Origin: Cyanobacteria bacterium auto_48_18
GTDB lineage: Bacteria; Cyanobacteriota; Vampirovibrionia; Obscuribacterales; Obscuribacteraceae
Length of the DNA: 64,000 bases
Assembly (NCBI GenBank): GCA_036170915.1
Contig: JAVHQC010000013.1
Coordinates: 1 to 64,000 of the forward strand
Direction: 5' to 3'
This document shows positions 1,980 through 60,136 of this stretch, in pieces (position 1 is the stretch's first letter; each line of letters opens with the position of its first letter). The notes under the pieces are model-generated. The model saw nothing but the letters and a program-made list of their open reading frames with translations. It was not told the DNA's origin and searched no databases. The position numbers and the translations under genes are program-made.

Positions 1980-2288
1980 TTACTCGATGCGGAAGGTTGT
2001 GCGACCAACCTTTATTATGTCATTGGGTGACAGTTGCCATGGGGCGGAAATTAACTGGTCATTAACTGTTGTGCCATTGCTGCTCATCAGATCTTCCAGC
2101 CACCAGCGGCCCTGGTCCCAGTAGATTTTGGCGTGGTCAGCCGAGGCATAGCCGTCGTCGGGCAAAATTACTTCATTTTCGGGTGCCCGGCCAAGATTAA
2201 CCGTGGGGCCGGAGAGCATATAAGTTTCGTTGGTTTGTAGATTGACCAGTACCGGCAGGCGGCCTGTTTGCGGAGCATTGCTGGACAT
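1980..2288 (-). CDS. Stand-alone FHA domain protein
   Basis: LGRAPENEVIL...ASADHAKI...LEDLMSSNGTTVN...L..NDIIKVG matches the FHA signature (GR, SxxH, NGT). Confidence 0.92.
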   Translation of the reverse strand: MSSNAPQTGRLPVLVNLQTNETYMLSGPTVNLGRAPENEVILPDDGYASADHAKIYWDQGRWWLEDLMSSNGTTVNDQLISAPWQLSPNDIIKVGRTTFRIE

Positions 2289-30765: not shown

Positions 30766-32373
30766 CTAATGATGATCGTGATCGCACGAATCACATGAGT
30801 CGTCATCGTCATGATTAAGCTCATACTCACTGTCGATGGCTTTTATGCGCGCGAGCACAGCGTCGGCATTGCTTTGCTCTCCCATGGCTATATAGCACTC
30901 ATAGGCTTGTTCCAGCGACTCTAATATTTCGCCGTGTGATGGACCTAAAAAGCGCTCTTGAGTTTCTGCATTTTTTAGAAACAGTGGTAGCGCCTCACTG
31001 TGTTGCTTTAGCTTAAATAAGACGAAGGCCAGGTCGTTGCGCATATCAACTAAGTCAAACAGGTTCAAAAAAGACTGACCAGCTTCGACGTATTCTTCGG
31101 CGAGTTGCAATGCTTTCTTATGATATTCTGCGGCTTTTTCAAATTCATGGAAAAACTCAAAAAGTGATCCCAGCGAGTGAAGATGCATTACGTTTGTTGG
31201 TGAATTTGGTGCGCCCTCGACTTTTGCGGCTCGTGCTTCAACGGCGTCCATTAAATCATCAGCTGGTCTTTTGGTATCAATATACAAATCGAGTAGTTCG
31301 GAAATTGAGGCGTGAAAAGGTAAGAAAGAATAATCGATACGTTCGGCTTCTTTTAACGCCGTTTTAAGTACAGTTCTTGCTTCTTTGTGATTACCTTGCT
31401 CAGAAAAGTGGTGTGCGCTTTCCAGTAAATCTTCCCAACGCTGCCAGCGTTTGATGTCACCGTTGGCGATGGCAATGGTTTGAAATTCGCGATTGGAAAA
31501 ATTGTCTGGTTCGGCAGTCACTTTTGCCAGCCACTCAATTGCTCCTGCTATACAATGCCAGGCTGGCTCAGTATCTTCAATGTATCTTTCCAGGCCAAAG
31601 GCACCCAAAAGTTCTTTAAACGAATCGTTTTCAGCTGACACCAGTCGGTTAGCAATTAGCAAGCTGCCTGAAGCGAAACCATGAGTCAGAGCACTGCGCG
31701 AAAGTAATGTATCACCCGTAAGAGCAAAGTGAATCAGGGCGTTAAGATAATGCCACTGGGCCTCGTTGTCTGAGTTTGCCTGCAGAATATCTTGCGCTGC
31801 TTTATAGTCGCCCATTTGTATGAAAAAGCTGGTGGCGAGATCTCTCAGTACTTCTTGCTCCATGCTGTCGATTTCGTTGAGGGGCTCGCTGAAGTGGGCC
31901 GTGAGCAATTCGACGGCTTCTTTTTTTAAGCCGGCATTCCATTTTAATTGCGCCAGGTCAGCCACAGCGAAAGTGTAGAGCTCTGGTGAGACTTCATATA
32001 TTTCGCTTTCGTCTTTACTTTCGTCTTCAGCTTCGCTCTCGACCTGGGCCAATAATTCTTTTCTTAAAGCATCCACAGCGGCCTGCCCATGTTCTAAGGC
32101 GGCTTCAAGATTTTCAGTCTCGCGAGCCAGAACCAGGCTAGCAAGGCCACATGATCCATCTTTTGCCGCTTTAAGTGCCTGGTGAGCCGCCTCTAATCGC
32201 TCGCTACTGCTTTCACCGCACACAGCTTCATCGAGTAGGCCCGATAGTTTGTCTGCATCACTAAGGTTTTCACCAATATCAAAATGCTCTACCAGGTCTA
32301 GGTGCATCCCTGGTCGCAACGCCGCTCCTGCCTTGTTATAGGATGCTACTTTAGAAGGAGTGCTATTTTTCAT
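30766..32373 (-). CDS. TPR-like repeat protein with His/Cys/Asp-rich C-terminal tail (paralog of 40524-42197)
   Basis: Helical repeats; WHYLNAL.HF...GDT..SR.AL and RW.RWE shared with the paralog; tail HDDDDSCDSCDHDHH. Confidence 0.75.
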   Translation of the reverse strand: MKNSTPSKVASYNKAGAALRPGMHLDLVEHFDIGENLSDADKLSGLLDEAVCGESSSERLEAAHQALKAAKDGSCGLASLVLARETENLEAALEHGQAAVDALRKELLAQVESEAEDESKDESEIYEVSPELYTFAVADLAQLKWNAGLKKEAVELLTAHFSEPLNEIDSMEQEVLRDLATSFFIQMGDYKAAQDILQANSDNEAQWHYLNALIHFALTGDTLLSRSALTHGFASGSLLIANRLVSAENDSFKELLGAFGLERYIEDTEPAWHCIAGAIEWLAKVTAEPDNFSNREFQTIAIANGDIKRWQRWEDLLESAHHFSEQGNHKEARTVLKTALKEAERIDYSFLPFHASISELLDLYIDTKRPADDLMDAVEARAAKVEGAPNSPTNVMHLHSLGSLFEFFHEFEKAAEYHKKALQLAEEYVEAGQSFLNLFDLVDMRNDLAFVLFKLKQHSEALPLFLKNAETQERFLGPSHGEILESLEQAYECYIAMGEQSNADAVLARIKAIDSEYELNHDDDDSCDSCDHDHH

Positions 32374-32471
32374 AAAACCTCGACTGCTCGTATAGGCGTC
32401 CGCCCTTGGCGGCAAACCGTGTGCAATCTTGGCTTTCTTCCCTTAAATGATCAAGGACAATAGTTATCCAT

Positions 32472-34785: not shown

Positions 34786-35289
34786 ATGGAAGACCAGATT
34801 GTGGCACGCTTGAAAGGAATCCGAAATTTTCATGCGGTTAATTCCTGGCTCTACCGTGGCGGCCAACCAACAGAGGCGCAGTTTGCCGAGATTGCAGAGG
34901 CGGGCATTAAAACCGTGGTTTGCTTACGTTGGGGTCAGAAAGTCCGGGATGCTGAGCAAAAGGCGGTAGAAGCCGCGGGCATAAAGTATGTTGGTTTGCC
35001 GCATTACTATTGGCGATTGCCCACTGCTGAAGAAATTGATGAATTTCTCAATCTTTTAGATACCGAAAGCGCTCGTCCAATTTTCGTTCACTGCTACCAC
35101 GGTTCAGATCGCACTGGCTTACTGATCGCCATGTATCGATTATCAAGGCAGAGCTGGACATTTAAGGAAGCCTACCAAGAGATGAGAAAGTATGGTTTTC
35201 ACCGATTCCGTCTTCAGCATTTTAAGTGGGTTTTATATGGTTACGCTAGAAAAGAAATGCGACGCAAAAGATTGCAGAATCAATCTTAG
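34786..35289 (+). CDS. Cys-based (dual-specificity/tyrosine) phosphatase
   Basis: NFHAV...LYRGGQP; HCYHGSDRTG CX5R loop. Confidence 0.92.
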   Translation: MEDQIVARLKGIRNFHAVNSWLYRGGQPTEAQFAEIAEAGIKTVVCLRWGQKVRDAEQKAVEAAGIKYVGLPHYYWRLPTAEEIDEFLNLLDTESARPIFVHCYHGSDRTGLLIAMYRLSRQSWTFKEAYQEMRKYGFHRFRLQHFKWVLYGYARKEMRRKRLQNQS

Positions 35290-37142: not shown

Positions 37143-38246
37143 TTGGTTGAAATCTTGCCATTAAGACTACCATCAATATTTTCGTCATTAGCTCTCTTGC
37201 TTCTGGCACAATTATTTATTCCAGCTGCCACTGCTGACGATGTGCAATATCTTTTGCACGGTGACGGCGGGCGCCTTGATTGGAATGATCAAAGTCAGCA
37301 GCTAGTGCTGGATCGCCCGAGTGCTAGCGGTTATGCGCGCTTGTGGACCATGGATGGTGACGGGCAAAGTCTGCAATGTATATCGTGCAGCAACCGTAGA
37401 TTACCACTTAAGCACCATGGAAATCCGGCCTGGCACCCAGGTGGTAAGTATATAGTTTTCCAGGCGGTAGATGCAGAGCTTGGCGGCCCACTAGCTAAAT
37501 CTTCAATGCATAGACTGTTTACCAGCCCTGGTTCTGGTGTGCAAAACAATATCTGGATTATGACTGCCGATGGCGTTCGTGTATGGCAAATCACCCGACT
37601 GGGTAAAAACGAGGGTGTTCTGCATCCTCACTTTTCGCCAGATGGCACCAAACTTGTCTGGGCGCAGCGTATCAGCAATGAAGGTGGCATCGGGCGCTGG
37701 AGCATTAAGCTGGCTAATTTTTCTGTGTCAGGCAGCGAGATTGCAGTAAGTGGCATTGCCGATTTGACACCAGGCCAGTTTCTTTTTTATGAAACTCATG
37801 GTTTCTCGCCTGACGGTAAAAGCATTATATTTACTGGAATGCCACCAAAAGGAACGTGTGCTGATTTTGACATCTATACATATAATCTTGAAACCGATAG
37901 CCTCAAATGTTTAACGAACCCCAGCCAAAGGCAATGGGATGAGCATGCGCATTTTACTCCTGATGGCAGGCATATTGTTTGGATGTCTAGCATGGGCAGT
38001 GGACAATCGCCTGCGAAAATGAATCAATTTCAAGTCAAGACTGATTATTGGATTATGAATGCTGATGGTACCAACAAGAAACAAATTAGCTTTTTCAATT
38101 CGCCAAAAGCGTTTTCGAAACAAAAGCGAGTGATATGCAGCGACCTTGCCATTTCGGGCGACGGTAAATATCTTTTTGGCTATGTGCAAGATCCCGGCAC
38201 AATGACCCGCCCAGGATCGGTGGTGCGCCTTACTATTCCTGACTAG
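37143..38246 (+). CDS. Secreted TolB-like (PD40) beta-propeller protein
   Basis: Repeated P.W/F(S/H/T)PDG..I(V/I)F/W motifs; signal peptide. Confidence 0.85.
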   Translation: MVEILPLRLPSIFSSLALLLLAQLFIPAATADDVQYLLHGDGGRLDWNDQSQQLVLDRPSASGYARLWTMDGDGQSLQCISCSNRRLPLKHHGNPAWHPGGKYIVFQAVDAELGGPLAKSSMHRLFTSPGSGVQNNIWIMTADGVRVWQITRLGKNEGVLHPHFSPDGTKLVWAQRISNEGGIGRWSIKLANFSVSGSEIAVSGIADLTPGQFLFYETHGFSPDGKSIIFTGMPPKGTCADFDIYTYNLETDSLKCLTNPSQRQWDEHAHFTPDGRHIVWMSSMGSGQSPAKMNQFQVKTDYWIMNADGTNKKQISFFNSPKAFSKQKRVICSDLAISGDGKYLFGYVQDPGTMTRPGSVVRLTIPD

Positions 38247-38252
38247 TTATTT

Positions 38253-40463
38253 CTATTCGAGAGTCTTAAGTTTAGGCAGACTGCGGTGAAGTCTAGTCTC
38301 GATTTGAGTGGTGGCAAGTTGAAAAGGCAACCTTAGAACTTCAAGTTTTTTGAACTTTTGCATTGAGGCTACACTTTCTTGATCGAGCTTTTCACAATCG
38401 GCTACGTTTAAGTAAATCAATGCAGCTAAGGAAGTGAGCTTTTCTAAGTCAGCACTGGTGAATGAGTTGCTGCGAATTGTAAGGCGATCGAGCGCTTTCA
38501 GTTTACTCAGCTTCTCAAGTTCGGTACTGGTAAAGTCAATATTTTCAAATCTAAGGTTTGTGATTTTCTCTGAACTGGAGAGCAGATCTAAGAGAGGTGA
38601 TATGTTTGGTACACCACCAATGGTTAAAGTCTGAACATATTTGATAAACGGCATTTTTGCAATTTCGGCACCGTCGACATTGGCATTAACTAAAGCGAAG
38701 CGCTTCAAGTCTTTTAGTTTAGAAAGGCTAGCCACACCTTTTTCAGAAAGCACTAGATCATGCAAAAATAGAGCATTGAGTGTTTTTGAACCTTCGAGGT
38801 TGGCCACCAAACTGTCACCATTGCGAAAACCACCCTTAATGGAAAAAGAAGTCAAATCGGTGTCCTGAAAGTGTTTGAGCAATTCAGGATAGGTTCCAAG
38901 AATATAATTCGCTTCCAGGTGGATTTCTTCGCTGGGCATTACGGTGACCAGTCCCTGTGCCTGGCAGATTCTCTGTGTTGTAGGGCTGCCCGTACTTAGC
39001 TTACCCAGAGAGAAACTGGCCGGAAAGTCAAATTGCTTTTGAGTGATACCATTGATTTGCACAAGCTGTGAATATTTTCGCTTACGATTTCTTAGAAAGC
39101 TTTCGGCAGCAATTTTCAAATCTGGATCGATATCGTTTAGATTGAGGGTGCTTCCGTCTAGATCAGCTGCCAGATCGAGTTCTCCGCCAGTTGTCTCAGA
39201 ATGTGACTTTGCCGTTGTGCCAGCTTTTTCTGCCGTTTTGCTTAAGTGTTGTGCACCAGTGGCGATACTAAGGCATAAGAGCAGCAAAGCGGTGGGTATT
39301 AATAATTTCTCTGAGCCAACCAGGGAAAACTTTGCTTTACCAAGCTCACGATCGGGCATTTTTGTGTCTATAGATTTTCCATCAGCAATGCGACTTAAAT
39401 CTGCATGCAGTTCGCTGGCCGACTGATAGCGATCCTCAGGTTTTTTAGCCAAACACTTCTGAATTACTATATCAATTGATGGTGGCAATATTTTGTTTGT
39501 CAAAACATCAGATATAAGAGGTGGTGTCGCTTCGTAGTGCATGATGGCAATGTCCATCGCCGTTTCGCCTTCGAACGGAACAAAACCAGTAAGAGTTTCA
39601 AACAATGTGCAGCCAATTGAATAAATGTCGGATCGCCCATCGACAGTTTGTCCTGTGCACTGCTCAGGACTCATATAATATGGACTGCCAAAAACTTCGC
39701 CCACAGCGGTCAGATTTTGTGTCTGGTCGTTGCCTGCGAGCAGTTTGACAATGCCAAAGTCTAGAATTTTGATATTGACTTGCTCAGGGGTGTTGGTGGT
39801 ACACAGAAAAATATTGGCAGGCTTTAAATCGCGATGGATAATGCCATGGCTGTGGGCATAAATCATGCCGTCGATTAAGGGCAGAAATATTTGTAGTGTT
39901 TTTCTCAGACTCTGTGGGCCTTCTTCAGCTAGCAGCGCTTCGAGGTTTTGACCTTGCAGAAGGTCCATGGAATAAAATGGCACTGAGCCATTATGAACAC
40001 CCAGATCGTATACTTTGACAAAACTGTTGTGATTTAAAGCCGCAAGTGTTTTAGCTTCAGCCTGAAAGCGCAGCCAACTTTGCTCGTTTATTATTTCGGG
40101 AGAGAGTACCTTTAAGGCGAAGGCTTTGTTTAATGTGGCATGTTCAGTATGATAGACGGTGCCCATGCCTCCTTCACCTATGATTGAGACAATTTTGAAA
40201 ATTTTGCCCACTACTGCACCTGGGCCAATAGACATAAGTTGCAGCAAAGTAGGCTCATTACCATGGGTCAACGCTTTGCTAATAGAGCGCTTTTTCATTG
40301 CAGCTCTTTGTGCCGTGCTGGTGCGGCTCAATGAACTGTTTGAAGATCTTTCTGTGGAGCGTCTTTTCCCGCATCTGCAGTAGTTATGCCGAAAGACGAA
40401 CGAGGCCAATGAGCCGACTCGTGGAGCCGGCTGCTTACCGCAGTTTTCGCACTGTTTTAGCAT
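38253..40463 (-). CDS. Ser/Thr kinase - TM - leucine-rich repeat protein (N-terminal Cys cluster)
   Basis: IGEGGMG, HRDLKPAN, DFG, SPE; TM LLIPTALLLLCLSIA; LxxLxxLxL repeats. Confidence 0.92.
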   Translation of the reverse strand: MLKQCENCGKQPAPRVGSLASFVFRHNYCRCGKRRSTERSSNSSLSRTSTAQRAAMKKRSISKALTHGNEPTLLQLMSIGPGAVVGKIFKIVSIIGEGGMGTVYHTEHATLNKAFALKVLSPEIINEQSWLRFQAEAKTLAALNHNSFVKVYDLGVHNGSVPFYSMDLLQGQNLEALLAEEGPQSLRKTLQIFLPLIDGMIYAHSHGIIHRDLKPANIFLCTTNTPEQVNIKILDFGIVKLLAGNDQTQNLTAVGEVFGSPYYMSPEQCTGQTVDGRSDIYSIGCTLFETLTGFVPFEGETAMDIAIMHYEATPPLISDVLTNKILPPSIDIVIQKCLAKKPEDRYQSASELHADLSRIADGKSIDTKMPDRELGKAKFSLVGSEKLLIPTALLLLCLSIATGAQHLSKTAEKAGTTAKSHSETTGGELDLAADLDGSTLNLNDIDPDLKIAAESFLRNRKRKYSQLVQINGITQKQFDFPASFSLGKLSTGSPTTQRICQAQGLVTVMPSEEIHLEANYILGTYPELLKHFQDTDLTSFSIKGGFRNGDSLVANLEGSKTLNALFLHDLVLSEKGVASLSKLKDLKRFALVNANVDGAEIAKMPFIKYVQTLTIGGVPNISPLLDLLSSSEKITNLRFENIDFTSTELEKLSKLKALDRLTIRSNSFTSADLEKLTSLAALIYLNVADCEKLDQESVASMQKFKKLEVLRLPFQLATTQIETRLHRSLPKLKTLE

Positions 40464-40523
40464 GACCTCGAACTTAGTCTTCAGGGATAAATTTGCTAGT
40501 TAGCTATTCTAATTTTTTTGCTT

Positions 40524-42197
40524 TTACTTTTCTACCTGCTTTGCTTTTCGAGCGAATTTTGTTCTATTGAAAAGCCTGGCTAAAAGTGAGGGTTCGGTTT
40601 GGGGTTTAGGCTTGACTTTGACCGCAAGATCAGGGTTTGGCGGTAAGGTAGATTCAATAGTTTTCAATTGGCTTTTGATAGCATCGGCTTGCTCTTTGCG
40701 CCCTAAGGCAAGATTGCTTTCATAAGCGAAGCAAAGTAATGGCAAACCGACAAAGTGTTTACTTCCAAACAGCATATTTTGCGTGTGCATTGGCAGTGAC
40801 ACCATCTCCAATACTTTTTCGTATTTTTTCATGCGAAAAAGTACATGAGCGAGGCTGGTGCGAATTTGAATATCGTCGGTCAGGTCTAAAGCCTGGTCAC
40901 TTTGCAATTGAGATGAAATCGCTAATGCTCTTTCGCCGCACCTCAAAGCCTCATTTTCATCGTTCGCTATTGCCAGAAGAAAGCAGAACGATGCATAGTG
41001 TAAGGCGCCCAGAGGCCCAGTCAGCAGAGATTGACTTTCAAGGCACTTGAGTCGACTCTGAATCTTTTCGCGTAGCCCATGATTTTTCTTGCATTCGCTG
41101 TTTGGACAGGACAGTGCCATCACAGCTTGTTCAAATGGATAGGGTGTGTACTCAATGCGCTCCGCTTCGCGTAATGCAGCTTTGAAAGCATTTTTTGCCT
41201 CCCAGTCTTTATCAGTTCTCGCAAAGTGCACACCAACACGGTCCAGGCTTTCCCAGCGCGCCCATCGATTTTCGTCTTGCTTGGCTCTGGCTATTGCTTT
41301 AGATTGTCTGAACGCCACGGATAGCGGTTGTGAGAAGTTATCGCTTAACCAATCAATCGCTGACGGCACTGACTGCCAGGCATGAAAAGTATCTGTGAAA
41401 TATTTTTGCAAGTCGGCAGAAGTCTCGCCATTTTCATCGTTGGCCTGGTCTCGCTCAGTGATCTTGCCATCCATAAGGCGCACTGCTGTGATTGTTCCTT
41501 CAGCAAAAGCTTGATTTAGCGCCCCCCTTGAAATTGCGGTATCGCCGGCAATGCCAAAGTGCGCCAGGGCGTTCAAATAATGCCAACCCTCGCCAAAGTT
41601 TGGATGGTCAAAAAGGAAATTTTTCGCCTTGTGATACTCGCTATTTTGAATCATCAAACTGGCTGCTAGATGGCGCACAATTATTTGATTTTCGCTCCAG
41701 AGTTTATCGTCATGATCTCTCATGGCTGTGAGCGCTATTTTGACTGCTTCTTCTTTCTCGCCTGCATTCCAGGTAATTTGCCCGCGGTCGACCATAGCTT
41801 CTGCCAGCGTGCGAGCATTGATGCTATATTTCTTAAATTGATTTTGAGCGATTTCTCGTTCGATACCCTGTGTTGCTTTTTGCGCGTATAGCATGGCCGT
41901 CTGCCAGTTTTCAGCACCTTCTCGCGCTAACACCAGCCACGCCAGCGAGCAGTGGCCGCCGCTTATTTCTATACACTGTTGGGCTGCTGCCAGGCGTTCA
42001 TCGGTACTCGCCGCAGTCAGGCTTTGTTTCAGGAAGTTGCTAATTATTGAATCTGTATCTGACTGAGAATTTTTATTATTACTGTTACCGCTGTGGCTAA
42101 AATTGCATACTTTAAGTAAGTCATGGTGCGGCCCTTCTCTCAGAACAACAAATTTTTCTGCCTTTTCTTTAGTCAGTGTTGCTAAATTGGTCTGCAT
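40524..42197 (-). CDS. TPR-like repeat protein (paralog of 30766-32373)
   Basis: CSLAWLVLARE, WHYLNALAHFGIAGDTAISRGAL, AW..VPSAIDWL, RWARWE, ALREAERI. Confidence 0.75.
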   Translation of the reverse strand: MQTNLATLTKEKAEKFVVLREGPHHDLLKVCNFSHSGNSNNKNSQSDTDSIISNFLKQSLTAASTDERLAAAQQCIEISGGHCSLAWLVLAREGAENWQTAMLYAQKATQGIEREIAQNQFKKYSINARTLAEAMVDRGQITWNAGEKEEAVKIALTAMRDHDDKLWSENQIIVRHLAASLMIQNSEYHKAKNFLFDHPNFGEGWHYLNALAHFGIAGDTAISRGALNQAFAEGTITAVRLMDGKITERDQANDENGETSADLQKYFTDTFHAWQSVPSAIDWLSDNFSQPLSVAFRQSKAIARAKQDENRWARWESLDRVGVHFARTDKDWEAKNAFKAALREAERIEYTPYPFEQAVMALSCPNSECKKNHGLREKIQSRLKCLESQSLLTGPLGALHYASFCFLLAIANDENEALRCGERALAISSQLQSDQALDLTDDIQIRTSLAHVLFRMKKYEKVLEMVSLPMHTQNMLFGSKHFVGLPLLCFAYESNLALGRKEQADAIKSQLKTIESTLPPNPDLAVKVKPKPQTEPSLLARLFNRTKFARKAKQVEK

Positions 42198-42260
42198 TCA
42201 ATCTTTCCTATCCTCCACGCAAATTTTTCAGAGCCCCTCACTTGATGGCCTCTAAAAAGC

Positions 42261-42289
42261 TATACGTTTGCGGATGTGGAAAAGTTCAA
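42261..42289 (-). promoter_or_regulatory. Putative ECF promoter TTGAAC...CGTATA
   Basis: Minus strand TTGAACTTTTCCACATCCGCAAACGTATA, co-linear with the site at 33570-33598. Confidence 0.4.
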
Positions 42290-42366
42290 CCAAACTGGCC
42301 ATTGGCAAAACTAAAAATCTTAAATGGTCAAAAAAATAGTATTAAAGACAGTTTGTATTTTCTGCC

Positions 42367-44436
42367 TTAATCTGGAATTCGGATCTCTAGATCAGGTCTG
42401 TTTTTCTTCAGTGCTGCCAGAACATCTTTTGCAAACATATCGTCGCTGACAGTAAGGATTTTCAGATTTTTAAACTTTGTTAGTAATGCTAAAGATTTTG
42501 GGGTCAGGCCCCGGCAGCGGTGCATATTGATGTCAACTACCGGCGCCTTTAATTTGGTCAGTTTGGCGAGCTGATTATCTGTAGTTTTATTGTCTCTGAT
42601 ATTGAGGAACGTAAGGTTTTTCAGCCTTGATATCAATTCATAGTCTTGATCATTGAGGTCGCTTCTAGCAATACTAAGATGGGTTATTCGTTGCTTTGCC
42701 ACCAAAACCTTTAGCAGGTCGGTGACTTGCAGCTTATAGTCAACATCGAGAACGCTGACTCTTGACCACATTTTGAGCGGTGCCATAGCCCCAGCGGTTA
42801 TGGGGTTTTCCGAGAGATTTAAACGCTCAACATCTGGAACTCTGTCGATCCATTTTAAATCGACGGTCTGCAATTCTCTTTCTTTTTTGAAATCCAACTG
42901 CGACAAACCGCGCATTTTGCAAACAAAATCGCCGATACGTGGATGGCTTTCGGGCAAATATCTGACAGCCAAAACTGCTAGTTCGTTCGGCCGAAAATAT
43001 GTCAGCAATTCAGGATAATTGGCGGTGGTAATTCCCGTTTCAAAGCCCAGACGAGTGCCTTTGGGAACGACGATTTGGCCTTGTGCATCTTTGTGAATTT
43101 CTCTTTGATTAGTCCTTTGATACCAAATTTTGCCCAGGGAGAATTTTTCTGGAAAATCAAATTGCAGAAAATCTTTGCCTCTTATTTTGACTGCATGACT
43201 GTATGGCTCTTTATTCTTCGCCAAAAATTGTTTAACCAGATCGCTTTCAACTTTGCCAAGTTTCTGTACTTTTGGAGCTATAGATTTTTCAAAAAGATCA
43301 TCACTAGCCTGTGCATACTGCGTTGGCTTAAACTCGTGCAAACCACTCACCTTAAGATTGTCGTGCGGCACGCCGGTGTTGGTGAATGCGGTTTTTAGCA
43401 CCGTGTAGGCTAAGGCTGCAGTCAAAATCACGGCAATGGGAATGGCGACCATCAACAGCCGCTTTCTTTTGTTAGTGTCGATATTTTGAGTTTCTTCAAT
43501 TGAGCTAGATAGCTCAGCAATTTTTGTCTTTGCCGATTCACGTGGGCTAATTTCTTTGCCGGCTTTTAAAATCTTCAATTGTTCGGCCACATCATAGAGA
43601 GATGTTGGTCGCTGTTCTGGAGCTTTGCTCATCAAATTGGCCACTATGGCTTCGAGGGCCGGCGGAAACAAAGTGTTGACCGCTACCTCGCTCATGGAAG
43701 GTGGGCTAGCGGTCTGGTGCAAAGCGATTGTTTCAATAGCGCTTTTGCCGAGTAATGGCGGCTTGCCGGTAAGCGCTTGAAACATGGTGACACCAACCGA
43801 GTACATGTCGGTTCTGTAGTCGACTTTTTGACCGAGCGATTGCTCTGGGCTCATGTAAAGCGGGCTGCCGAAGACTTCACCCGGTTTGGTTAGACCCTGA
43901 TGAACATTGGTATCGTACGACAATAATTTGGCAATGCCGAAATCGACAAGCTTAACCTGGCCTGTGCCAGATAAAATCATGATGTTACCCGGCTTGATAT
44001 CGCGATGAATAATGCCGCGATCGTGAGCGTAACCAAGACCATTGCAGATTTGCTCGAAAATGGGCAAAGCATCTTCCACAGACAGGCGGCCGTTTTCATC
44101 AAGTCGATCCGCAAGTGATTCACCCTGCAGATAATCCATGGTGTAGAACGGCAATCCACCTGCCGTCTGGCTCATATCATAAATTTTGATGATATTGAGA
44201 TGATCAACTCTGGCAATAGCCTGTGCTTCAGTGCGAAATCGCTGCCAAACCTCCGTTGACACCTGATCTTGCTGTAAGACTTTCATCGCAAGAACTTTTG
44301 CCAAAATCAAATGTTCTACTTTGAAGACCTTGCCCATGCCTCCCTGGCCGATGAAATCCAAAATTTTGTAGGTGTCGGCGACAATGGCTCCGACCTCAAA
44401 AGATTCATTATTTTGGCCAGGCTGCTGGAAATTCAT
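42367..44436 (-). CDS. Ser/Thr kinase - TM - leucine-rich repeat protein
   Basis: IGQGGMG, HRDIKPGN, DFG, GSPLYMSPE; TM LLMVAIPIAVILTAALAYTVL; LRRs. Confidence 0.93.
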   Translation of the reverse strand: MNFQQPGQNNESFEVGAIVADTYKILDFIGQGGMGKVFKVEHLILAKVLAMKVLQQDQVSTEVWQRFRTEAQAIARVDHLNIIKIYDMSQTAGGLPFYTMDYLQGESLADRLDENGRLSVEDALPIFEQICNGLGYAHDRGIIHRDIKPGNIMILSGTGQVKLVDFGIAKLLSYDTNVHQGLTKPGEVFGSPLYMSPEQSLGQKVDYRTDMYSVGVTMFQALTGKPPLLGKSAIETIALHQTASPPSMSEVAVNTLFPPALEAIVANLMSKAPEQRPTSLYDVAEQLKILKAGKEISPRESAKTKIAELSSSIEETQNIDTNKRKRLLMVAIPIAVILTAALAYTVLKTAFTNTGVPHDNLKVSGLHEFKPTQYAQASDDLFEKSIAPKVQKLGKVESDLVKQFLAKNKEPYSHAVKIRGKDFLQFDFPEKFSLGKIWYQRTNQREIHKDAQGQIVVPKGTRLGFETGITTANYPELLTYFRPNELAVLAVRYLPESHPRIGDFVCKMRGLSQLDFKKERELQTVDLKWIDRVPDVERLNLSENPITAGAMAPLKMWSRVSVLDVDYKLQVTDLLKVLVAKQRITHLSIARSDLNDQDYELISRLKNLTFLNIRDNKTTDNQLAKLTKLKAPVVDINMHRCRGLTPKSLALLTKFKNLKILTVSDDMFAKDVLAALKKNRPDLEIRIPD

Positions 44437-44513
44437 TTTTTATGTGTTGAGCTTCACTGTTCATGCGAAAATAACCTCAACAGTATAATCCAGTATCTAA
44501 TTGGAGACATTTT

Positions 44514-46490
44514 TTGCTGGATGCGTGTAATCCACAGTTAAAAGTCGGCCGCCTCATAGATGGCACGTATAAAGTGCTTGAATTTGTGGGGCAGGGTGCC
44601 ATGGGCACCGTGTACAAAGTTGAACATAAAGTTCTCAATCGGGTGCTGGCACTCAAAATTTTGCAAGTTGATAATCTTACCCAGAGTGTCTGGAAGCGAT
44701 TTCAGCTTGAGGGCAAAGCCATTGCCAGAATTGAACACCCGAATGTAATCAAGATCTATGACCTCAACAAGACTGAAGACGGTCAAGCTTATTACACGAT
44801 GGAATTTCTTTCTGGACTCTCCATGGGAGATTATCTGGCGGCCAATGGACGTTTTGCTCTGGCCGATGCCTTACCAATATTTCGGCAAGTTTGCAGCGGC
44901 CTTCAAAGCGCCCATGATTCTGGCATTATTCACCGCGATATCAAACCCGGAAATATCATGCTTGTTAAAAGTGAGCCGTCTGTGCCCATTTCGCAGTGCA
45001 CGGCAAAAATTGTTGATTTTGGCATTGTCAAAATTGCCGACAGTACTAATTTGAGCACTCTTGCTTTGACTCGACCCGGAGAAATTTTTGGTACGCCATT
45101 TTACATGAGCCCTGAGCAGTGTGCTGGTGGTCACCTTGACCAACGCAGTGATATTTATTCGCTGGGAGTGACATTCTTTCAGGCGCTAACCGGTGAACCG
45201 CCTTTGTGTGGTCGCAACGCTGTAGAAACTACACTGCTTCATCACACCACTGTGCCGCTTTCGCTTAATGAGACTGTGGGTGAGCATTTATACCCGGCCG
45301 CACTGGAAGACATTATCGCTAAAATGCTTGAGAAGGCTCCTGAAGATCGTTATGCATCAATGGCTGAAGTGGAAGATGCATTGCTTTCTGTAAGCGACGG
45401 CCCAGGAGGAAAATCTTCTCGTAGGACTTTGCCGCGGGCTGCTCTGAATACGGAGACGTCTGGCAATACTCAATCGCAAACCCAAACACGCGCATTCAAA
45501 ATTTTCAGCAAAATGTCCATGCTATTGCTCTCATTTTTGATTGTGGGTGTTGCATCAGTAAGTATTTTGGCTGGAACATTGTTTCCCACTAAATCTGTAA
45601 GCACTGTAAAAATTCAGTACACCACTGATGGTGCCGAAAAGTATCTTCCCGGCGCAGAAATATCCAGCACCGATTCAAGCCTAGCGCGTCAGTATATTGC
45701 CTCCAGACCAAGACCATACTTTCAGTCTCAGACAGATACAGCGCGTATTTTCCATTTTCCCGACAAATTTTCATTGGGCGAAATCAGAGGTCAAAACGGA
45801 TTTACTAACACTTTCAATCGCGAGGCGCGTGGCGAGATGCATTTGCCGCGCTATGTCATGTTGAAATTAGATGCCAGTCCTATTGTTTTTCTCGAGCCAA
45901 AACTGATGGAGTATTTTGCTCCTTCAAGTTTAGATTGGTTTGCCATCGAGGGCGAAAATAGACGCGTCAAGGAGCTTGTCAGAAGCCTTGCTCGAATAAA
46001 ATCACTGCAATATCTGGAACTTAAAAATTGCGATTTACTTGAAAGCGATTTGCCCTACATTGAAAAGTTTGAAAAACTCAGGTTGTTGGATTTGCGATTT
46101 TCGGGCATTGACGGAATTAGCCTGGCAAAACTGCGCAACTTAAAGCAACTCAAAATTTTATGCATTGATGGTATTCCCAATGTCGCACCGGTTCTTAGAG
46201 AGCTTGTTTTGGGGAACAACATTGAAGCGCTATCGGTAAATAATTGCATTTTGACTCAAGCTGATTTTTCTACCATTGCACGTATGAAAAAATTGACCAA
46301 TTTGTATTTGCGCAATACTTCACTTACCGATAAAGGTCTGGCTCAATTGACTTGTCTTGATCTGAGGACTTTAAACATTATTGGCTGCGATAAGCTCAGC
46401 GCGAAATCAACCACTCTGCTGAAGAAATTTAGGCACATGAAAGAGCTGAAGCTGCCTACTGTTCACTCCTGGAATGAATTGCTTAAGTAA
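44514..46490 (+). CDS. Ser/Thr kinase - TM - leucine-rich repeat protein
   Basis: VGQGAMG, HRDIKPGN, DFG, GTPFYMSPE; TM; LRRs. Start codon uncertain. Confidence 0.92.
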   Translation: MLDACNPQLKVGRLIDGTYKVLEFVGQGAMGTVYKVEHKVLNRVLALKILQVDNLTQSVWKRFQLEGKAIARIEHPNVIKIYDLNKTEDGQAYYTMEFLSGLSMGDYLAANGRFALADALPIFRQVCSGLQSAHDSGIIHRDIKPGNIMLVKSEPSVPISQCTAKIVDFGIVKIADSTNLSTLALTRPGEIFGTPFYMSPEQCAGGHLDQRSDIYSLGVTFFQALTGEPPLCGRNAVETTLLHHTTVPLSLNETVGEHLYPAALEDIIAKMLEKAPEDRYASMAEVEDALLSVSDGPGGKSSRRTLPRAALNTETSGNTQSQTQTRAFKIFSKMSMLLLSFLIVGVASVSILAGTLFPTKSVSTVKIQYTTDGAEKYLPGAEISSTDSSLARQYIASRPRPYFQSQTDTARIFHFPDKFSLGEIRGQNGFTNTFNREARGEMHLPRYVMLKLDASPIVFLEPKLMEYFAPSSLDWFAIEGENRRVKELVRSLARIKSLQYLELKNCDLLESDLPYIEKFEKLRLLDLRFSGIDGISLAKLRNLKQLKILCIDGIPNVAPVLRELVLGNNIEALSVNNCILTQADFSTIARMKKLTNLYLRNTSLTDKGLAQLTCLDLRTLNIIGCDKLSAKSTTLLKKFRHMKELKLPTVHSWNELLK

Positions 46491-46625
46491 ATGCTTTCAG
46501 CTTCAGTTGGCTGTCAAGCGCTTTCGAATGCAAATACTTAGTTAGCATCTGAGTGCCCACCGAGCCATTCGCGTTAGCATATAGCCTGCTGATTTGAAGA
46601 ACAGCTAGTTGCAAGGAGATTGATC

Positions 46626-47525
46626 ATGCGCCATCCCAACGTTCCCGAGTCATTGGAAGGTTGGTGGATACTCCACCGTATGTTTGCAGTAGACCGACTT
46701 TTTTGGGACGAACTGGAACAAGAAGAACGTGAAGAAATCGTTCGTGAGGCTACTGCTGCCCTTTCAACGCTTCAGAAAAGTGAGAATACTGACGTCGGTT
46801 TGGCTCAAATGCTGGGGCACAAAGCTGACTTGATGCTCACACACTACAGCAAAGATTATGACGGGCTGGCTCACGCACAAACTGTTGTCGACAAACTGCG
46901 TCTGTCTAATTTTCTCACGCCAATTTCATCGTATGTCTCTGTTCTTGAATTGGGTCTATACGAAGCCACAGGAAAAATACATGCCGCTCTGGCTGAGCAA
47001 GGCCTCAAGGCGAACTCGCCTGAGTGGATTGCTGCTTTTGATGCAAAAGTTGCAGAGCAAGAGAAAATTCCTCATTTTGGTGGTCGTCTCTGGGCGCGCA
47101 TTCCACAACGTCGTTATGTTTGCTTCTACCCCATGGATAAGAAGCGTGGCGAACACGTTAACTGGTACACGCTTCCTTATGAAGAGCGCGGTAAGTTGAT
47201 GATCGAACACGGCAAAATCGGTAGAACTTATGCCGGTCTTGTAACGCAAGTGATCTCCGGTTCTATTGGTTTCGACAAAAACGAGTGGGGCGTGGATCTT
47301 TACGCAGACGATCCGATGGTCTTTAAGAAATTGATTTACGAAATGCGCTTCGATGAAGCTAGCTCCAAATATGGTGACTTTGGTGATTTCTATTCGGGCA
47401 TACAGTTCTCACTCGATCAGCTGGCAACATATTTAGACGGCACTGCTGTGCCGGCGCTCAATGTGCTGGAGCCGGCTGGTGGCGGCCGCCCAGGTGGCAG
47501 ACCAGAACCAGCTACGAGACCTTAG
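46626..47525 (+). CDS. chdC: Coproheme decarboxylase (chlorite-dismutase-like family)
   Basis: LEGWWILH, GHKADLM, SYVSVLEL, FYPMDKKR...NWYTLP.EER..LM.EHG.IGR, GFD..EWGV.L, YEMRFDE.S; RBS AGGAG. Confidence 0.88.
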   Translation: MRHPNVPESLEGWWILHRMFAVDRLFWDELEQEEREEIVREATAALSTLQKSENTDVGLAQMLGHKADLMLTHYSKDYDGLAHAQTVVDKLRLSNFLTPISSYVSVLELGLYEATGKIHAALAEQGLKANSPEWIAAFDAKVAEQEKIPHFGGRLWARIPQRRYVCFYPMDKKRGEHVNWYTLPYEERGKLMIEHGKIGRTYAGLVTQVISGSIGFDKNEWGVDLYADDPMVFKKLIYEMRFDEASSKYGDFGDFYSGIQFSLDQLATYLDGTAVPALNVLEPAGGGRPGGRPEPATRP

Positions 47526-47548
47526 GCTCCCTTATATTTCGCTTACCG

Positions 47549-47588
47549 AATCGCAGAGAAATTTGGGCAAAATTTCTCTGCGATTTGG
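47549..47588. repeat. Dispersed palindromic (REP-like) element, copy 2; probable bidirectional terminator
   Basis: AATCGCAGAGAAATTT-GGGCA-AAATTTCTCTGCGATT, a perfect 16-bp stem between convergent genes. Confidence 0.8.
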
Positions 47589-47631
47589 ACTTTGAAATTC
47601 TGCACTAACCCACAAGCAAGCTGCACTCGAT

Positions 47632-49698
47632 TCAGTAGTCTTTATCGTTAATGGTAATGATTGTTCTGGGCATTGCTTTTTGCAATTTGGCTATCTGCTC
47701 TGGTGTGAAATTATCAACAGGAATAACCAGTCGCTTCATATTCTTGAAGCGCGGAAACACGCTCAACACTTTTGCGTTCAAGCCCCGCACTTCTTTAAGA
47801 ATCAGCTTTTCTAAATCGAGTTTAGTCAGCTCAACGATGTCTTGGTTCGACATTTTGTTATCCCGCAGGTTGAGCTGCTTCAGATGCGTTATTCTCGCCA
47901 CCTGCCTGTAGTCATCTGTAGTTGGGTCGCAGCAGGCCATACTAAGATGCCGAATATTCTGACTTTTTTCCAGTGCTTTTAAGACAGGCGAAATGTTTTC
48001 CATGTGCTCAATTTCTAGATATGCAAGTCTACTCATGAGCTTGCTTGCAGCCAGGCCTTTTGCAGTAACATTGGTCTTGCTGACAGTCAGCCTTGCCAGA
48101 GATGGCATTTTCTCCAGCCAGTTTAAGTCGCTGTCAGTGATGTCAGCGTAATGCAGATCTAAGACCTGAAGGCCGGTTAGTCTTGAAAGATTTTGCACCA
48201 TGCTTTCTCGATTTTCGCTGACGTGATTGAGGCCGAGCCCTTGCAATTCATTGGCACCAAAAAATTGCAACAGGTCATAGTAGGCCTTGGTTACGGGGCT
48301 GGCGTCTAGTCGCAGCCTTGCTTTAAGTGGTACCTTAACTACGCCTTGTGCTTTTACGTACTTTGCGCTTCTGCGGTCTCCAAGGCTGTAGATAATTTTT
48401 CCTAGAGCAAAATCGCTAGGAAATTCAAAGCGTCTGTATTCTTCACCGTTCACTTTGTATATGGTGCTATACATTTTTTTGTTTTTGGCTAAGAACTCTT
48501 CAGCTTTATCTGCTTCAGGCAGTCGAACCTCCTGGTCGTATGCGTCGCCCTTTTTATCTACTTTTACAGCAGCTGCATCCAAATCACTTTTGTCGTGGAG
48601 AAGAAGCACGCCTTCGTCATAAAGCGTTTTGAGTTTGAAATCTTTTTCAGCGTGGTTTCTTTGCTGGTCCCAATACCAGTATGTTCCCGCTAGAGTTAGC
48701 AAAACCAGCACTGTGAGTGGAATGTATATAAATAACTGTCTTTTGTTGTCACCAAATGTGGTATCAACGCCTTCCTCTACTAGTGCTTGAGGTGCTCGAG
48801 CTGCGTTAGCTTCTCTGGTCAGTCGCTTGCCTTGCGCCAATGTTTTTAGCTCTTCGGCAACATCATAAAATGATAGATATCGTTGTTCTGGATCTTTGCT
48901 CAAAAGCCGCTGCACAATGAGTTCTAGATCGGGCGGAATGGCAATGTCTGGAGCCATGTCTTTTAGCGCAGGAGGTGGCGCCGATTGATGCAGCGCCACC
49001 GTTTCTATGGCGCTTTTACCCAGCAGGGGAGGCCGGCCTGTAAGTACTTGAAACATTGTCACGCCGACAGAATACATGTCTGTGCGGTAGTCAACCTTTT
49101 GACCATGCGCCTGTTCCGGACTCATATATAGCGGGCTGCCAAACACTTCACCAGGTCGGGTTAAGGCTTGACCAACGTTTGTGTCGTACGACAATAATTT
49201 GGCAATGCCAAAGTCGACGATTTTAACCTGCGGCCGTTTGGCGTCGCCCTCGTGCAAAATCATAATGTTGCCAGGCTTGATATCGCGGTGAATAATTCCA
49301 CGATCGTGAGCGTAACCAAGGCCGTTGCAGACCTGTTCGAAAATTAGTAAAGCTTCTTGTACCGGAACTCGACGAACGTCACTAAGGTGATCAGCCAGCG
49401 ACTGACCAGCCAAATATTCCATGGTGTAAAAAGGCAATCCGCTCGCAGTTTGGCTCATGTCAAAAATTTTGATAATGTTCGGATGATCGACTCTGGCAAT
49501 AGCTTGCGCTTCAGTGCGAAATCTTTGCCATACTTCGGTCGAAACTTGCTCCTGGCGCAAAATTTTCATAGCCTGGATTTTTGCCAGCACCAGGTGCTCA
49601 ACTTTGAACACCTGCCCCATTCCGCCCTGACCAATGAACTCTAGAATCTTGTAGGTTCCGGCAATTACCGAGCCAATTTCAAACGATTCTGCCTTCAT
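47632..49698 (-). CDS. Ser/Thr kinase - TM - leucine-rich repeat protein (close paralog of 42367-44436)
   Basis: Kinase motifs; TM LFIYIPLTVLVLLTLAGTYWYW; LRRs. Confidence 0.93.
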   Translation of the reverse strand: MKAESFEIGSVIAGTYKILEFIGQGGMGQVFKVEHLVLAKIQAMKILRQEQVSTEVWQRFRTEAQAIARVDHPNIIKIFDMSQTASGLPFYTMEYLAGQSLADHLSDVRRVPVQEALLIFEQVCNGLGYAHDRGIIHRDIKPGNIMILHEGDAKRPQVKIVDFGIAKLLSYDTNVGQALTRPGEVFGSPLYMSPEQAHGQKVDYRTDMYSVGVTMFQVLTGRPPLLGKSAIETVALHQSAPPPALKDMAPDIAIPPDLELIVQRLLSKDPEQRYLSFYDVAEELKTLAQGKRLTREANAARAPQALVEEGVDTTFGDNKRQLFIYIPLTVLVLLTLAGTYWYWDQQRNHAEKDFKLKTLYDEGVLLLHDKSDLDAAAVKVDKKGDAYDQEVRLPEADKAEEFLAKNKKMYSTIYKVNGEEYRRFEFPSDFALGKIIYSLGDRRSAKYVKAQGVVKVPLKARLRLDASPVTKAYYDLLQFFGANELQGLGLNHVSENRESMVQNLSRLTGLQVLDLHYADITDSDLNWLEKMPSLARLTVSKTNVTAKGLAASKLMSRLAYLEIEHMENISPVLKALEKSQNIRHLSMACCDPTTDDYRQVARITHLKQLNLRDNKMSNQDIVELTKLDLEKLILKEVRGLNAKVLSVFPRFKNMKRLVIPVDNFTPEQIAKLQKAMPRTIITINDKDY

Positions 49699-50587: not shown

Positions 50588-51829
50588 TCAGTCAGCTGGG
50601 GGCGGATCAACAATTGCGCCAAGGAATAAAATCGCATTTGTTTTGTCGTCGCGGATAGCAACAACAAAAGGACGATCGCAAACCATCTCGAATGGTGGCT
50701 CAGGTTCGGCCGGCGCGCTGGTGGTGCTCATTTCTACGGCAGTCGCTGCGGCAGCCTCTGTGCCTTTTTCGTTGACTTCCAGATATGTTTTATGCAAAAC
50801 GCGCGAAATTATCGACGGCTCTTTGGTCATGTTTTTGAAGTCAGCGCAGGAGTCTTCGAAGGCGCAGGGCATGCCTGCTTCTTTAAGCACTTGACTTAAC
50901 TCGGTTTTGTATTCAACTTTAAATCGCGGTAGACCAAGATGTCCTTCTTTTTTGCCAAACTGCTCGCTCCACTGTTTCAGGTTTTCTTCAGTAAAGCTGC
51001 CTACCAACGCTTTGATGTCTGATTTCTGATCAGGCAGGAAGACGCACATCTGCAGGCGTTTATCTTTATAAGGCAACATAACCGCCTGGAAATTCTTATC
51101 CTTAAAATAATGCATTTTGTCAGTACGATTCATCATTTGAATTTGTTTTTTAGCGCCACCTGCGACGGTAAACTCGGCAGCTTGTGTTTGATCTTTGACA
51201 AATTCATCGAGCCACATGCCCTTAAAATACACTGCGTTGACCAAGTATAAAATGGCTGCTGGTGGCACTTGATCGATAATTGTAGGAATTTTTCCTTTAG
51301 TATTATCTTTGACCCAATTATTGATTTTATCGAGGGTGGTGGCATCAGCAAAATCAAGAGTTTCAAGTTTGGCACCAAAATATTTCTGGTTGGTGTCCAT
51401 AAACGACTTTTCAAATGCAAAGTCTTTATTGGCAAATAGGGCATTGGCCACAGTCAGCTCGCTCACCGGATTAACGTGCATCAAGCTTTTATAGAGGCTT
51501 GCATTTTGCTCGTTGACTGCATCGTCAGTCATGCCGCTGTAACCTAAAACTTCTTGCATTTGTGTTTTGGTTTTACCCACAGCGCCGTTGTAGACCATAG
51601 AGAGCGCAGTACTTACGCTGTATGGAGAAATGACCACATTTTTTTCAGGGGCTGCGGCGGCAAGTTTAAAGAAGTTAGAGGCAAATTTTTCAGACACTTT
51701 CATATTCGTTGTATCAGCTTCATTGCGTGATTCGTTTATCTGTGTTTGCCCTGGCGAAGCGCAGGCCACGAGACAAATAGATACCAGTGAAAGGGCCGCG
51801 GTGGTGCAGGCATACAAGAATGGACGCAC
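50588..51829 (-). CDS. Serpin family protease inhibitor, lipoprotein
   Basis: NVVISPYS, INNWV...T.GKI, NAVYFKG.W, EKGTEAAAAT hinge, DRPF...ILFLG; lipobox LVAC. Confidence 0.96.
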   Translation of the reverse strand: MRPFLYACTTAALSLVSICLVACASPGQTQINESRNEADTTNMKVSEKFASNFFKLAAAAPEKNVVISPYSVSTALSMVYNGAVGKTKTQMQEVLGYSGMTDDAVNEQNASLYKSLMHVNPVSELTVANALFANKDFAFEKSFMDTNQKYFGAKLETLDFADATTLDKINNWVKDNTKGKIPTIIDQVPPAAILYLVNAVYFKGMWLDEFVKDQTQAAEFTVAGGAKKQIQMMNRTDKMHYFKDKNFQAVMLPYKDKRLQMCVFLPDQKSDIKALVGSFTEENLKQWSEQFGKKEGHLGLPRFKVEYKTELSQVLKEAGMPCAFEDSCADFKNMTKEPSIISRVLHKTYLEVNEKGTEAAAATAVEMSTTSAPAEPEPPFEMVCDRPFVVAIRDDKTNAILFLGAIVDPPPAD

Positions 51830-57212: not shown

Positions 57213-57217
57213 AGACG

Positions 57218-58834: not shown

Positions 58835-58869
58835 TGAAGCACCCTGTTGTCTATCGGCCACAGCTATTA

Positions 58870-58972
58870 TATTGATATATTGATTGAGAATAATCAATAC
58901 ATCAATAAGTTAATAATTTCAGCAGGTGATTTGCGCCTATTGATTGATATATTGATTACATGGTCAATAATT
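58870..58972. promoter_or_regulatory. Operator-like ATTGAT repeat array between divergent aceB and citrate synthase
   Basis: TATTGATATATTGATT-gagaat-AATCAATACATCAATA (15/16 inverted repeat, 58870-58907); exact second copy of ATTGATATATTGATT at 58943-58957 with partial mirror GTCAATA. Confidence 0.75.
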
Positions 58973-58994
58973 AAAATCTCAAGGGGTTTGAATC

Positions 58995-60125: not shown

Positions 60126-60136
60126 GAGCGCACTTT

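What the first reader, a model, noticed from the sequence alone, without database searches (positions are those of the whole stretch)
38253..49698. Cluster of four receptor-like kinase-TM-LRR proteins with a shared unnamed ectodomain cap
Seen: four genes within 11.5 kb encode an N-terminal Hanks kinase, one TM helix and C-terminal LRRs. All have a ~85-aa block between TM and LRR: (F/Y)(L/I).....Y...F.FP..F(S/A)LG.(I/L)...A(Q/R)G....P....L...L(L/M)..F....L. Known: kinase plus extracytoplasmic LRR is the domain logic of plant LRR receptor kinases, here in reverse order. Inference: a diversified bacterial surface-sensing receptor family (prey, competitor or phage recognition), with the FHA protein and CX5R phosphatase in this window as possible downstream parts.
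Basis: partly seen in the sequence, partly recalled or inferred. Interest (0 to 1): 0.75.

Follow-up and report, generated by a model that had tools for sequence, protein, structure and literature searches.

The report
Expanded bacterial LRR receptor-kinase repertoire
These four genes belong to a family of over thirty membrane-spanning protein kinases in one non-photosynthetic cyanobacterium, each with a different leucine-rich-repeat domain behind an unnamed cap, which likely act as a fast-changing set of receptors for incoming proteins, much as plant immune receptors do.

Summary
Observation confirmed. All four ORFs are intact RD-type PknB-like kinase, one TM helix, an 87-91-aa cap, then about 9 LRR turns. 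The cap has no Pfam or PDB match and is predicted as a small beta-rich N-cap continuous with the LRR sheet. It is not specific to these kinases: it heads 49 of 53 LRR ORFs in the genome, secreted-type kinase-less LRR proteins, and LRR units fused to a BlaR1/M56 protease. The cluster is a sample of a large family: 33 of 88 kinases in this genome (13 in one tandem array), and 34-57 cap matches in each of 14 same-genus genomes. The host is a non-photosynthetic cyanobacterium, likely Obscuribacteraceae. Copies are gained, lost and broken between close relatives. Tandem neighbours have homogenised kinases but old ectodomains whose concave LRR face differs most (28% vs 40% identity). Orthologues show no such deficit (75% vs 74%). 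Best reading: many periplasmic inputs, shared kinase output. Ligand, topology and output are inferred; the window's FHA protein and phosphatase show no link. It is a new variant of known bacterial kinase-TM-repeat receptors, not a plant LRR-RLK.

The parts
38253..40463 (-). Gene 1, 736 aa: Cys4 module (40365-40457), kinase (39381-40220), TM (39240-39305), cap (38841-39107), LRR (38256-38840). Same subclade as the C34 tandem array; absent from the syntenic locus of G006.
40365..40457 (-). N-terminal CxxC-x10-GS-h-T/A-x-F-h-F-x4-CxC module, predicted metal-binding. Present in 15 of 33 cap kinases of the genome (twice in 14) and in 1 non-cap kinase.
42367..44436 (-). Gene 2, 689 aa: kinase (43561-44391), TM (43396-43458), cap (42967-43236), LRR (42370-42966). 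Sister of gene 4. Versus its G006 orthologue: kinase 93%, cap 59%, LRR 57%.
44514..46490 (+). Gene 3, 658 aa (TTG start also in the orthologue): kinase (44547-45398), TM (45513-45590), cap (45684-45944), LRR (45945-46487). Kept in G006 and G009.
47632..49698 (-). Gene 4, 688 aa: kinase (48832-49674), TM (48670-48738), cap (48232-48504), LRR (47635-48231). Its ectodomain was modelled (pLDDT 96). Orthologue has an in-frame stop in G006 and is absent at this site in G009.
40524..42197 (-). Interleaved 557-aa protein, no Pfam hit, 31% paralogue of TPR protein 30766-32415. Absent with gene 1 in G006; no evidence it belongs to the system.
46620..47525 (+). Interleaved chlorite-dismutase-family gene, conserved (94-96%); bystander.
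34786..35289 (+).
1980..2288 (-).

Best explanation
The four genes encode single-pass PknB-type Ser/Thr kinases with intact catalytic motifs and a capped LRR domain that is predicted to face the periplasm, where each paralogue likely binds a different protein or peptide, probably of outside origin, on its concave face and would switch on a shared kinase output by dimerisation. Shown: architecture, intact RD kinases, family size, gain and loss, kinase halves more alike than ectodomains between tandem neighbours even at silent sites, and extra divergence of the concave face between paralogues but not orthologues. Inferred: (1) kinase in, LRR out; (2) the cap is a structural N-cap that closes the solenoid; (3) ligand binding on the concave sheet; (4) dimerisation and activation-loop autophosphorylation as in PknB; (5) signalling through the genome-wide FHA/PP2C pool; (6) biotic or non-self ligands. 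Duplication plus gene conversion of the kinase half would keep one output while the inputs diversify. The kinase-less signal-peptide copies would be soluble binders, decoys or co-receptors.
For: 33 of 33 cap kinases keep VAIK-K, alphaC-E, HRD, N, DFG-D, APE-E and an activation-loop Thr. Kinase dN/dS 0.09 over 14 G000-G006 orthologue genes, like 47 neighbouring controls (median 0.10); cap and LRR 0.22. Best solved relatives are PknB, StkP and PknA. One TM in 32 of 33. 12 of 15 kinase-less cap-LRR ORFs begin with a signal-peptide-like stretch (read by eye), and a cyanobacterial cap ORF has a lipobox-like start. The same cap-LRR unit follows a BlaR1/M56 transducer in P0003, so it is coupled to two unrelated outputs. 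All cap kinases form one clade, support 1.0, which also holds one short kinase without a cap. 13 lie in one tandem array. Gains, losses and at least 6 broken copies were seen in 20 fetched loci of relatives. For 8 within-genome pairs with kinase identity of 85% or more, concave is below convex identity in 8 of 8; pooled over 5 families 27.6% vs 39.6%, p=0.008; over the 4 families found after the idea arose, p=0.014. In 25 orthologue families 75.1% vs 73.9%, p=0.51; family-level contrast p=0.009, convex-matched p=0.035. Silent-site differences in those pairs are 0.35-0.61 in the kinase and 0.61-0.78 in the ectodomain, against medians of 0.36 and 0.38 in 30 orthologue pairs. Ligand-induced dimerisation of PknB-type kinases and periplasmic TPR/WD40 sensors are described in PMC6213207 and PMC11032199.
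Against: No ligand, activity or output was observed. The positive-inside test did not discriminate (15/7/11 with 15-residue windows, 12/12/9 with 6-residue windows), so topology rests on indirect arguments. Some cap-LRR proteins lack any signal peptide (C36:228693, 938 aa; P0023), so the module is not always exported. dN/dS of the ectodomain is below 1 between orthologues, and silent sites are near saturation between paralogues, so positive selection is not formally shown. Only 5 paralogue families carry the concave-face test, one pair is nearly flat (-2 points), and some others (window genes 2 and 4, C32 pair) show little or no deficit. No recurrent neighbour or defence-island context was found among 108 neighbouring ORFs, apart from one pAgo gene beside the C34 array. 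No T6SS sheath gene in 15 of 15 genus genomes. Frameshifts in metagenome assemblies can be errors.
Confidence: 0.55

Rival explanations
1. The receptors sense the cell's own envelope state or nutrients (periplasmic proteins, wall fragments, loaded binding proteins), as PknB and the GlnH-GlnX-PknG relay do; the repertoire reflects a versatile metabolism, not conflict.
For: PknB-like kinases. Many copies are kept as syntenic orthologues whose concave face is as conserved as or more conserved than the convex face. No defence context. The periplasmic position favours self ligands.
Against: Rapid gain, loss and breakage, a 13-copy array in one genome, copy number from 0 to over 50 across the family, and no residue shared across the concave face of paralogues fit a fixed housekeeping ligand poorly.
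Confidence: 0.25
2. Mostly neutral duplication: the ectodomain is a spacer or dimerisation scaffold under relaxed constraint, and the copies are largely redundant.
For: Ectodomain dN/dS 0.22 and lower GC (0.435 vs 0.475 kinase); frequent broken copies; no concave excess between orthologues.
Against: All 33 kinases intact; ectodomains still under purifying selection; the concave face behaves differently in paralogues and orthologues; expansions of 20 or more recur in four genera.
Confidence: 0.1
3. A kin- or cell-cell signalling code: the secreted cap-LRR proteins or other self peptides are the ligands or co-receptors, and each kinase reads one.
For: 12 signal-peptide-type cap-LRR proteins coexist with the kinases; strain-specific repertoires.
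Against: The secreted copies are mostly not next to kinase genes and are fewer (12 vs 33-35); no recurrent small neighbour gene (ORFs of 180 aa or more only).
Confidence: 0.1

Closest known systems
PknB/PrkC/StkP-type transmembrane Hanks kinases (also PknD, PknE)
   Same: N-terminal RD kinase, juxtamembrane linker, one TM helix, C-terminal repeat ectodomain; top solved relatives at E 1e-47.
   Different: No PASTA repeats (NF033483 256-286 bits vs cut-off 450, kinase part only); capped LRR instead; over 30 fast-turning paralogues instead of one core gene.
Expanded kinase-TM-TPR/WD40 receptors of Planctomycetota and myxobacteria (PMC11032199)
   Same: Lineage-specific expansion; cytoplasmic kinase with a predicted periplasmic C-terminal repeat array; duplication and recombination.
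   Different: The repeat is an LRR behind an unnamed cap; different phylum. The main text has no 'leucine' hit; the supplementary domain tables could not be seen, so kinase-LRR forms may be listed there.
Plant LRR receptor kinases with RLPs and PGIP (family traits recalled)
   Same: Works like: LRR ectodomain, single TM, Ser/Thr kinase, tandem arrays, birth-and-death, variable concave face, kinase-less LRR counterparts.
   Different: Reverse order, no signal peptide, bacterial PknB-like kinase, 0 plant-type LRR motifs in 33 ectodomains, structure closest to Skp2, RNase-inhibitor and Legionella LRRs. Convergent, not a member.
BlaR1/M56 signal transducers
   Same: P0003 carries the same cap-LRR unit three times after an M56 domain.
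   Different: Protease output rather than kinase; one example of unknown taxon.
LRR capping domains (internalin N-cap, LRRNT; recalled)
   Same: Sits at the N-terminal end of nearly every LRR solenoid of this type and extends its beta sheet.
   Different: Beta-rich, no cysteines, no sequence or fold match found.

Membership tests
PknB-type transmembrane Hanks kinases | Intact Hanks catalytic motifs, RD type | tested here: met
   33 of 33 cap kinases, including the four
PknB-type transmembrane Hanks kinases | Kinase closest to bacterial PknB/StkP/PknA | tested here: met
   top solved-structure hits at E<=1e-30 are PknB, StkP, PknA, PknE and a few generically named kinases
PknB-type transmembrane Hanks kinases | Single TM helix after the kinase | tested here: met
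   32 of 33 reach hydropathy 1.6; a second such stretch in 3 of 33
PknB-type transmembrane Hanks kinases | C-terminal domain extracytoplasmic | tested here: inconclusive
   positive-inside uninformative; indirect support from signal-peptide paralogues
PknB-type transmembrane Hanks kinases | Ligand-induced dimerisation and autophosphorylation | not testable with these tools
   needs biochemistry
PASTA kinases (Stk1/PknB sensu stricto) | PASTA repeats | tested here: not met
   no PASTA in Pfam scan; NF033483 below cut-off
Plant LRR-RLK | Signal peptide, N-terminal LRR, C-terminal kinase | tested here: not met
   order is kinase-TM-cap-LRR
Plant LRR-RLK | Plant-specific LRR motif (recalled pattern) | tested here: not met
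   0 matches in 33 ectodomains. Plant ectodomains do top the sequence-profile search by summed repeats, over the LRR part only
Plant LRR-RLK | Pelle/IRAK-clade kinase | tested here: inconclusive
   no plant kinase named among the 20 hits at E<=1e-30; no tree with plant kinases built
Planctomycetota kinase-TM-TPR/WD40 receptors | TPR or WD40 array as ectodomain | tested here: not met
   LRR solenoid
T6SS PpkA-PppA-Fha threonine-phosphorylation pathway | T6SS in the genome | tested here: not met
   PF05943 in 0 of 15 genus genomes, 71-98% complete
Anti-phage kinases (PD-T4-6, MAD6, PglW models) | Full-length match and system context | tested here: inconclusive
   matches cover the kinase domain only and are far below NCBIfam cut-offs; one pAgo beside the C34 array
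Any characterised cap or Ig-like domain | Sequence or fold match for the cap | tested here: inconclusive
   no credible Pfam or PDB sequence hit; best VIA Z 3.5, rmsd 4.1, 59 aligned; Foldseek none at E<=0.001

The most novel reading that the evidence does not exclude
A bacterial pattern-recognition repertoire: dozens of LRR receptor kinases plus soluble LRR partners, diversified by tandem duplication and kinase-half gene conversion, that detect non-self proteins entering the periplasm (phage ejection proteins, predator, epibiont or competitor effectors) and trigger a common defence response. This would be a convergent bacterial counterpart of the plant LRR-RLK/RLP immune layer, built on a new capping fold.
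Probability: 0.3. Interest if true: 0.85.

Novelty: new variant of a known kind. Interest (0 to 1): 0.6.

Why it matters
Known bacterial immune receptors are mostly cytoplasmic (own knowledge). A 30-50-member periplasm-facing LRR kinase family with the evolutionary marks of a receptor repertoire would make envelope-level non-self sensing testable, paralogue by paralogue. It also supplies an unnamed capping domain that heads most LRR proteins of this lineage and can serve as a marker for a wider bacterial LRR class. It shows that large kinase expansions are not confined to Planctomycetota, myxobacteria and filamentous groups. If the ligands are self or nutrients, it is still the largest kinase class of an uncultured group with no description found in the papers searched.

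Tried and rejected
Homodimer prediction of the ectodomain: no answer, score 0.00, not evidence either way. Positive-inside rule: uninformative in two window sizes. Fold searches of the cap alone: nothing clear; a weak match does not prove a new fold. Word-index searches with single non-kinase caps found 1 of 303 and 0 of 305 candidates, so the range outside the family is poorly mapped. Atlas hits to Binatota, Chloroflexota and PVC LRR clusters are leads only. No 16S found in the genome and no Rfam hit in the window. Sequencing runs: no RNA holder listed. Concave-face excess between orthologues: tested, not found (p=0.53). Dedicated neighbour, substrate or ligand gene: none recurrent. FHA and phosphatase linkage: rejected. 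T6SS link: rejected. PADLOC PD-T4-6 hits: kinase-only, rejected as identification. Literature searches found no description of this family; most subscription journals are not covered, and two wanted papers were not held.
Full report
Observation. The window is G000:C13:1-64000 of a 4.94-Mb, 86%-complete genome. Each has Pkinase, one hydrophobic helix, an 87-91-aa block and weak LRR hits. The block is real: a profile of the 34 copies outside the window finds all four (iE 1e-12 to 7e-24), and shuffled ORFs give at best iE 1.4 with the full profile.

Host. A syntenic close relative (L017, 76% over the ectodomain) is titled 'uncultured cyanobacterium'. No photosynthetic reaction-centre gene was found (control rings in Synechococcus). 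LpxC is present. Most sampled same-class families have genomes of about 2 Mb, while this family mostly has 3-9 Mb. Size and GC match the description of Obscuribacter (5.5 Mb, 49% GC) among 2-Mb Melainabacteria in PMC4040986 (passages). Obscuribacteraceae is therefore an inference, not a look-up.

Family size. Among 25,110 six-frame segments, an iterated cap profile found 38 ORFs; 33 also carry a kinase, out of 88 kinase ORFs, and 13 lie in one array on C34. At a relaxed threshold 50 ORFs have the cap, and 49 of 53 LRR-profile ORFs have it. Of 15 kinase-less cap ORFs, 12 start with a signal-peptide-like stretch (read by eye), one is the rear half of a frameshifted kinase gene, one has two TM helices, and one 938-aa protein has no signal. 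All 14 same-genus genomes have 34-57 matches, 23 of 24 family genomes match, and 0 of 16 from other families do. In a larger sample 86 of 103 family genomes match, with 20 or more matches in most or all genomes of four genera; 1 of 150 other genomes of the phylum matches. Matches are not copy numbers and include kinase-less proteins. In 1.84 billion representatives, 823 match at E<=0.001. Of the 150 listed, 127 have a kinase (125 kinase-TM-cap-LRR); the rest are fragments or kinase-less, including proteins with 2-4 repeated cap-LRR units and P0003, where three units follow a BlaR1/M56 domain.

Structure. The ectodomain of gene 4 folds with pLDDT 96 and pTM 0.92: a helix, six strands, then nine strand-helix turns. 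Foldseek's best matches are a Legionella LRR protein, Skp2 and RNase inhibitor. The cap alone (pLDDT 95) has no clear match: best VIA Z 3.5 among 48,161 chains and no Foldseek hit at E<=0.001, with no Pfam or PDB sequence match. Its last strand-helix continues the LRR sheet. Since it precedes almost every LRR of this type and is repeated with the LRR unit, it is best read as an N-terminal cap rather than the specificity domain.

Kinase and topology. All 33 keep the catalytic residues and are RD kinases; the nearest solved structures are PknB, StkP and PknA. Against G006, 14 orthologous genes give dN/dS 0.09 for the kinase, 0.37 for linker plus TM and 0.22 for cap and LRR; 47 neighbouring controls have a median of 0.10. 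Charge bias around the helix does not tell orientation. Kinase-in, LRR-out rests on the kinase's need for ATP, the single helix, the signal-peptide paralogues and the M56 fusion. With a 7-98-aa tether (median 42) in a diderm cell, ligands must reach the periplasm.

Evolution. Cap kinases form one clade (FastTree support 1.0, midpoint root, 87 or so kinases over 200 aa), which also holds one short cap-less kinase. Window genes 2 and 4 are sisters; gene 1 groups with the C34 array and shares its Cys4 module, found in 15 of 33. At this locus G006 lacks gene 1 and its two neighbours and has a stop in gene 4; G009 lacks gene 4. At a C11 site six genomes have two copies, G006 one and G000 none. At least six broken copies occur in the 20 loci fetched; some may be assembly errors. 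Between orthologues the concave face is no more variable than the convex face (73.0% vs 74.4%, p=0.53). In three close C34 paralogues it was far lower (25-30% vs 47-63%). To replicate this I fetched tandem groups from other genomes (chosen from match lists, not all copies) and compared 112 intact proteins. Eight within-genome pairs with kinase identity of 85% or more all have concave below convex: pooled over five families 27.6% vs 39.6% (p=0.008), and over the four new families p=0.014. Twenty-five orthologue families give 75.1% vs 73.9%; the family-level contrast is p=0.009, or p=0.035 when matched for convex identity. In those eight pairs silent sites differ less in the kinase (0.35-0.61) than in the ectodomain (0.61-0.78), whereas 30 orthologue pairs have medians of 0.36 and 0.38. 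So the kinase halves are homogenised by conversion, or ectodomains are swapped. Limits: five families only, position classes taken from one model, saturated silent sites (no formal dN/dS above 1), and little or no deficit in some older pairs.

Downstream parts. The genome has 7 FHA matches and one PP2C, next to an FHA gene and a non-cap kinase on C25. The window's FHA gene is beside a kinase-TPR gene 36 kb away. The CX5R phosphatase has a close orthologue in only 2 of 15 genomes; the others have a 45% paralogue, which in G003 and G007 lies far from any listed cap match. Among 108 ORFs of 180 aa or more near cap kinases there is no recurrent partner, and no T6SS sheath gene was found in the genus. 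A pAgo gene lies 1.5 kb from the C34 array, a single instance.

Mechanism. Most likely (0.55) these are inner-membrane receptors whose capped LRRs each bind a different periplasmic protein or peptide, probably of outside origin, and activate near-interchangeable kinases by dimerisation, as described for PknB in PMC6213207 (passages). Self or nutrient sensing (0.25), neutral redundancy (0.10) and a kin-signalling code (0.10) remain. Binding, activation, ligand class and output are all inferred.

Comparison and novelty. The design kinase-TM-periplasmic repeat and its lineage-specific expansion are known for TPR and WD40 (PMC11032199: abstract, passages and first part of the Discussion read; the supplement was cut and its domain tables not seen). 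PMC9519451 (two passages) only notes that a Ser/Thr kinase occurs among defence systems. The family works like plant LRR-RLK arrays but fails membership on order and LRR motif. Ten paper searches found no description (listings only). Earlier AI notes report a similar three-gene cluster in another genome and kinase-LRR forms in other phyla, so the architecture itself recurs. What is distinctive here is the scale, the cap and the repertoire-like evolution. Verdict: real; new variant of a known kind; interest 0.6.

Noticed in passing
L001:188-2473 (-) (G000:C34): Long prokaryotic Argonaute gene (Piwi; PADLOC pAgo_II 845 bits) 1.5 kb from the last gene of the 13-copy kinase array.
   Followed up: partly
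L001-L003 (G000:C34:5019-51555): Thirteen cap kinases on one strand, each with two Cys4 modules; one pair has kinase stretches 94-96% identical in DNA but ectodomains 35-54%.
   Followed up: yes
window 40365-40457 and the C34 copies: The Cys4 module has a conserved Thr followed at +3 by Phe or Leu, resembling an FHA docking site (recalled preference); speculation.
   Followed up: no
L038:2694-5510 (G000:C36): 938-aa cap-LRR protein with no signal peptide; a 928-938-aa counterpart occurs in several relatives.
   Followed up: partly
G000:C25:56740-60142: PP2C phosphatase, FHA protein and kinase genes side by side; the only PP2C match in the genome and a likely core signalling module.
   Followed up: no
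G000 C8, C11, C25, C26, C29, C34, C36: A separate clade of about 15 kinases with HRDxT in place of HRDxK, C-terminal kinase domain and no TM, mostly in adjacent pairs.
   Followed up: no
window 50588-51829 (-): Bacterial serpin with a lipoprotein-like start next to the cluster, conserved in G006 and G009.
   Followed up: no
window 37143-38246 (+) and 40524-42197 (-): TolB-like beta-propeller gene and a 557-aa TPR-paralogue flank gene 1; all three are missing at this site in G006.
   Followed up: partly
window 55848-61384: Isocitrate lyase, malate synthase and two citrate-synthase-family genes (one with an HTH) together.
   Followed up: no
L036:4891-5310 (G124): Only cap match among 150 other phylum genomes sampled: a short lipoprotein-like ORF with a cap and no LRR, apparently truncated.
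   Followed up: partly
P0003: 2353-aa BlaR1/M56 protein with three cap-LRR units; taxon unknown.
   Followed up: partly
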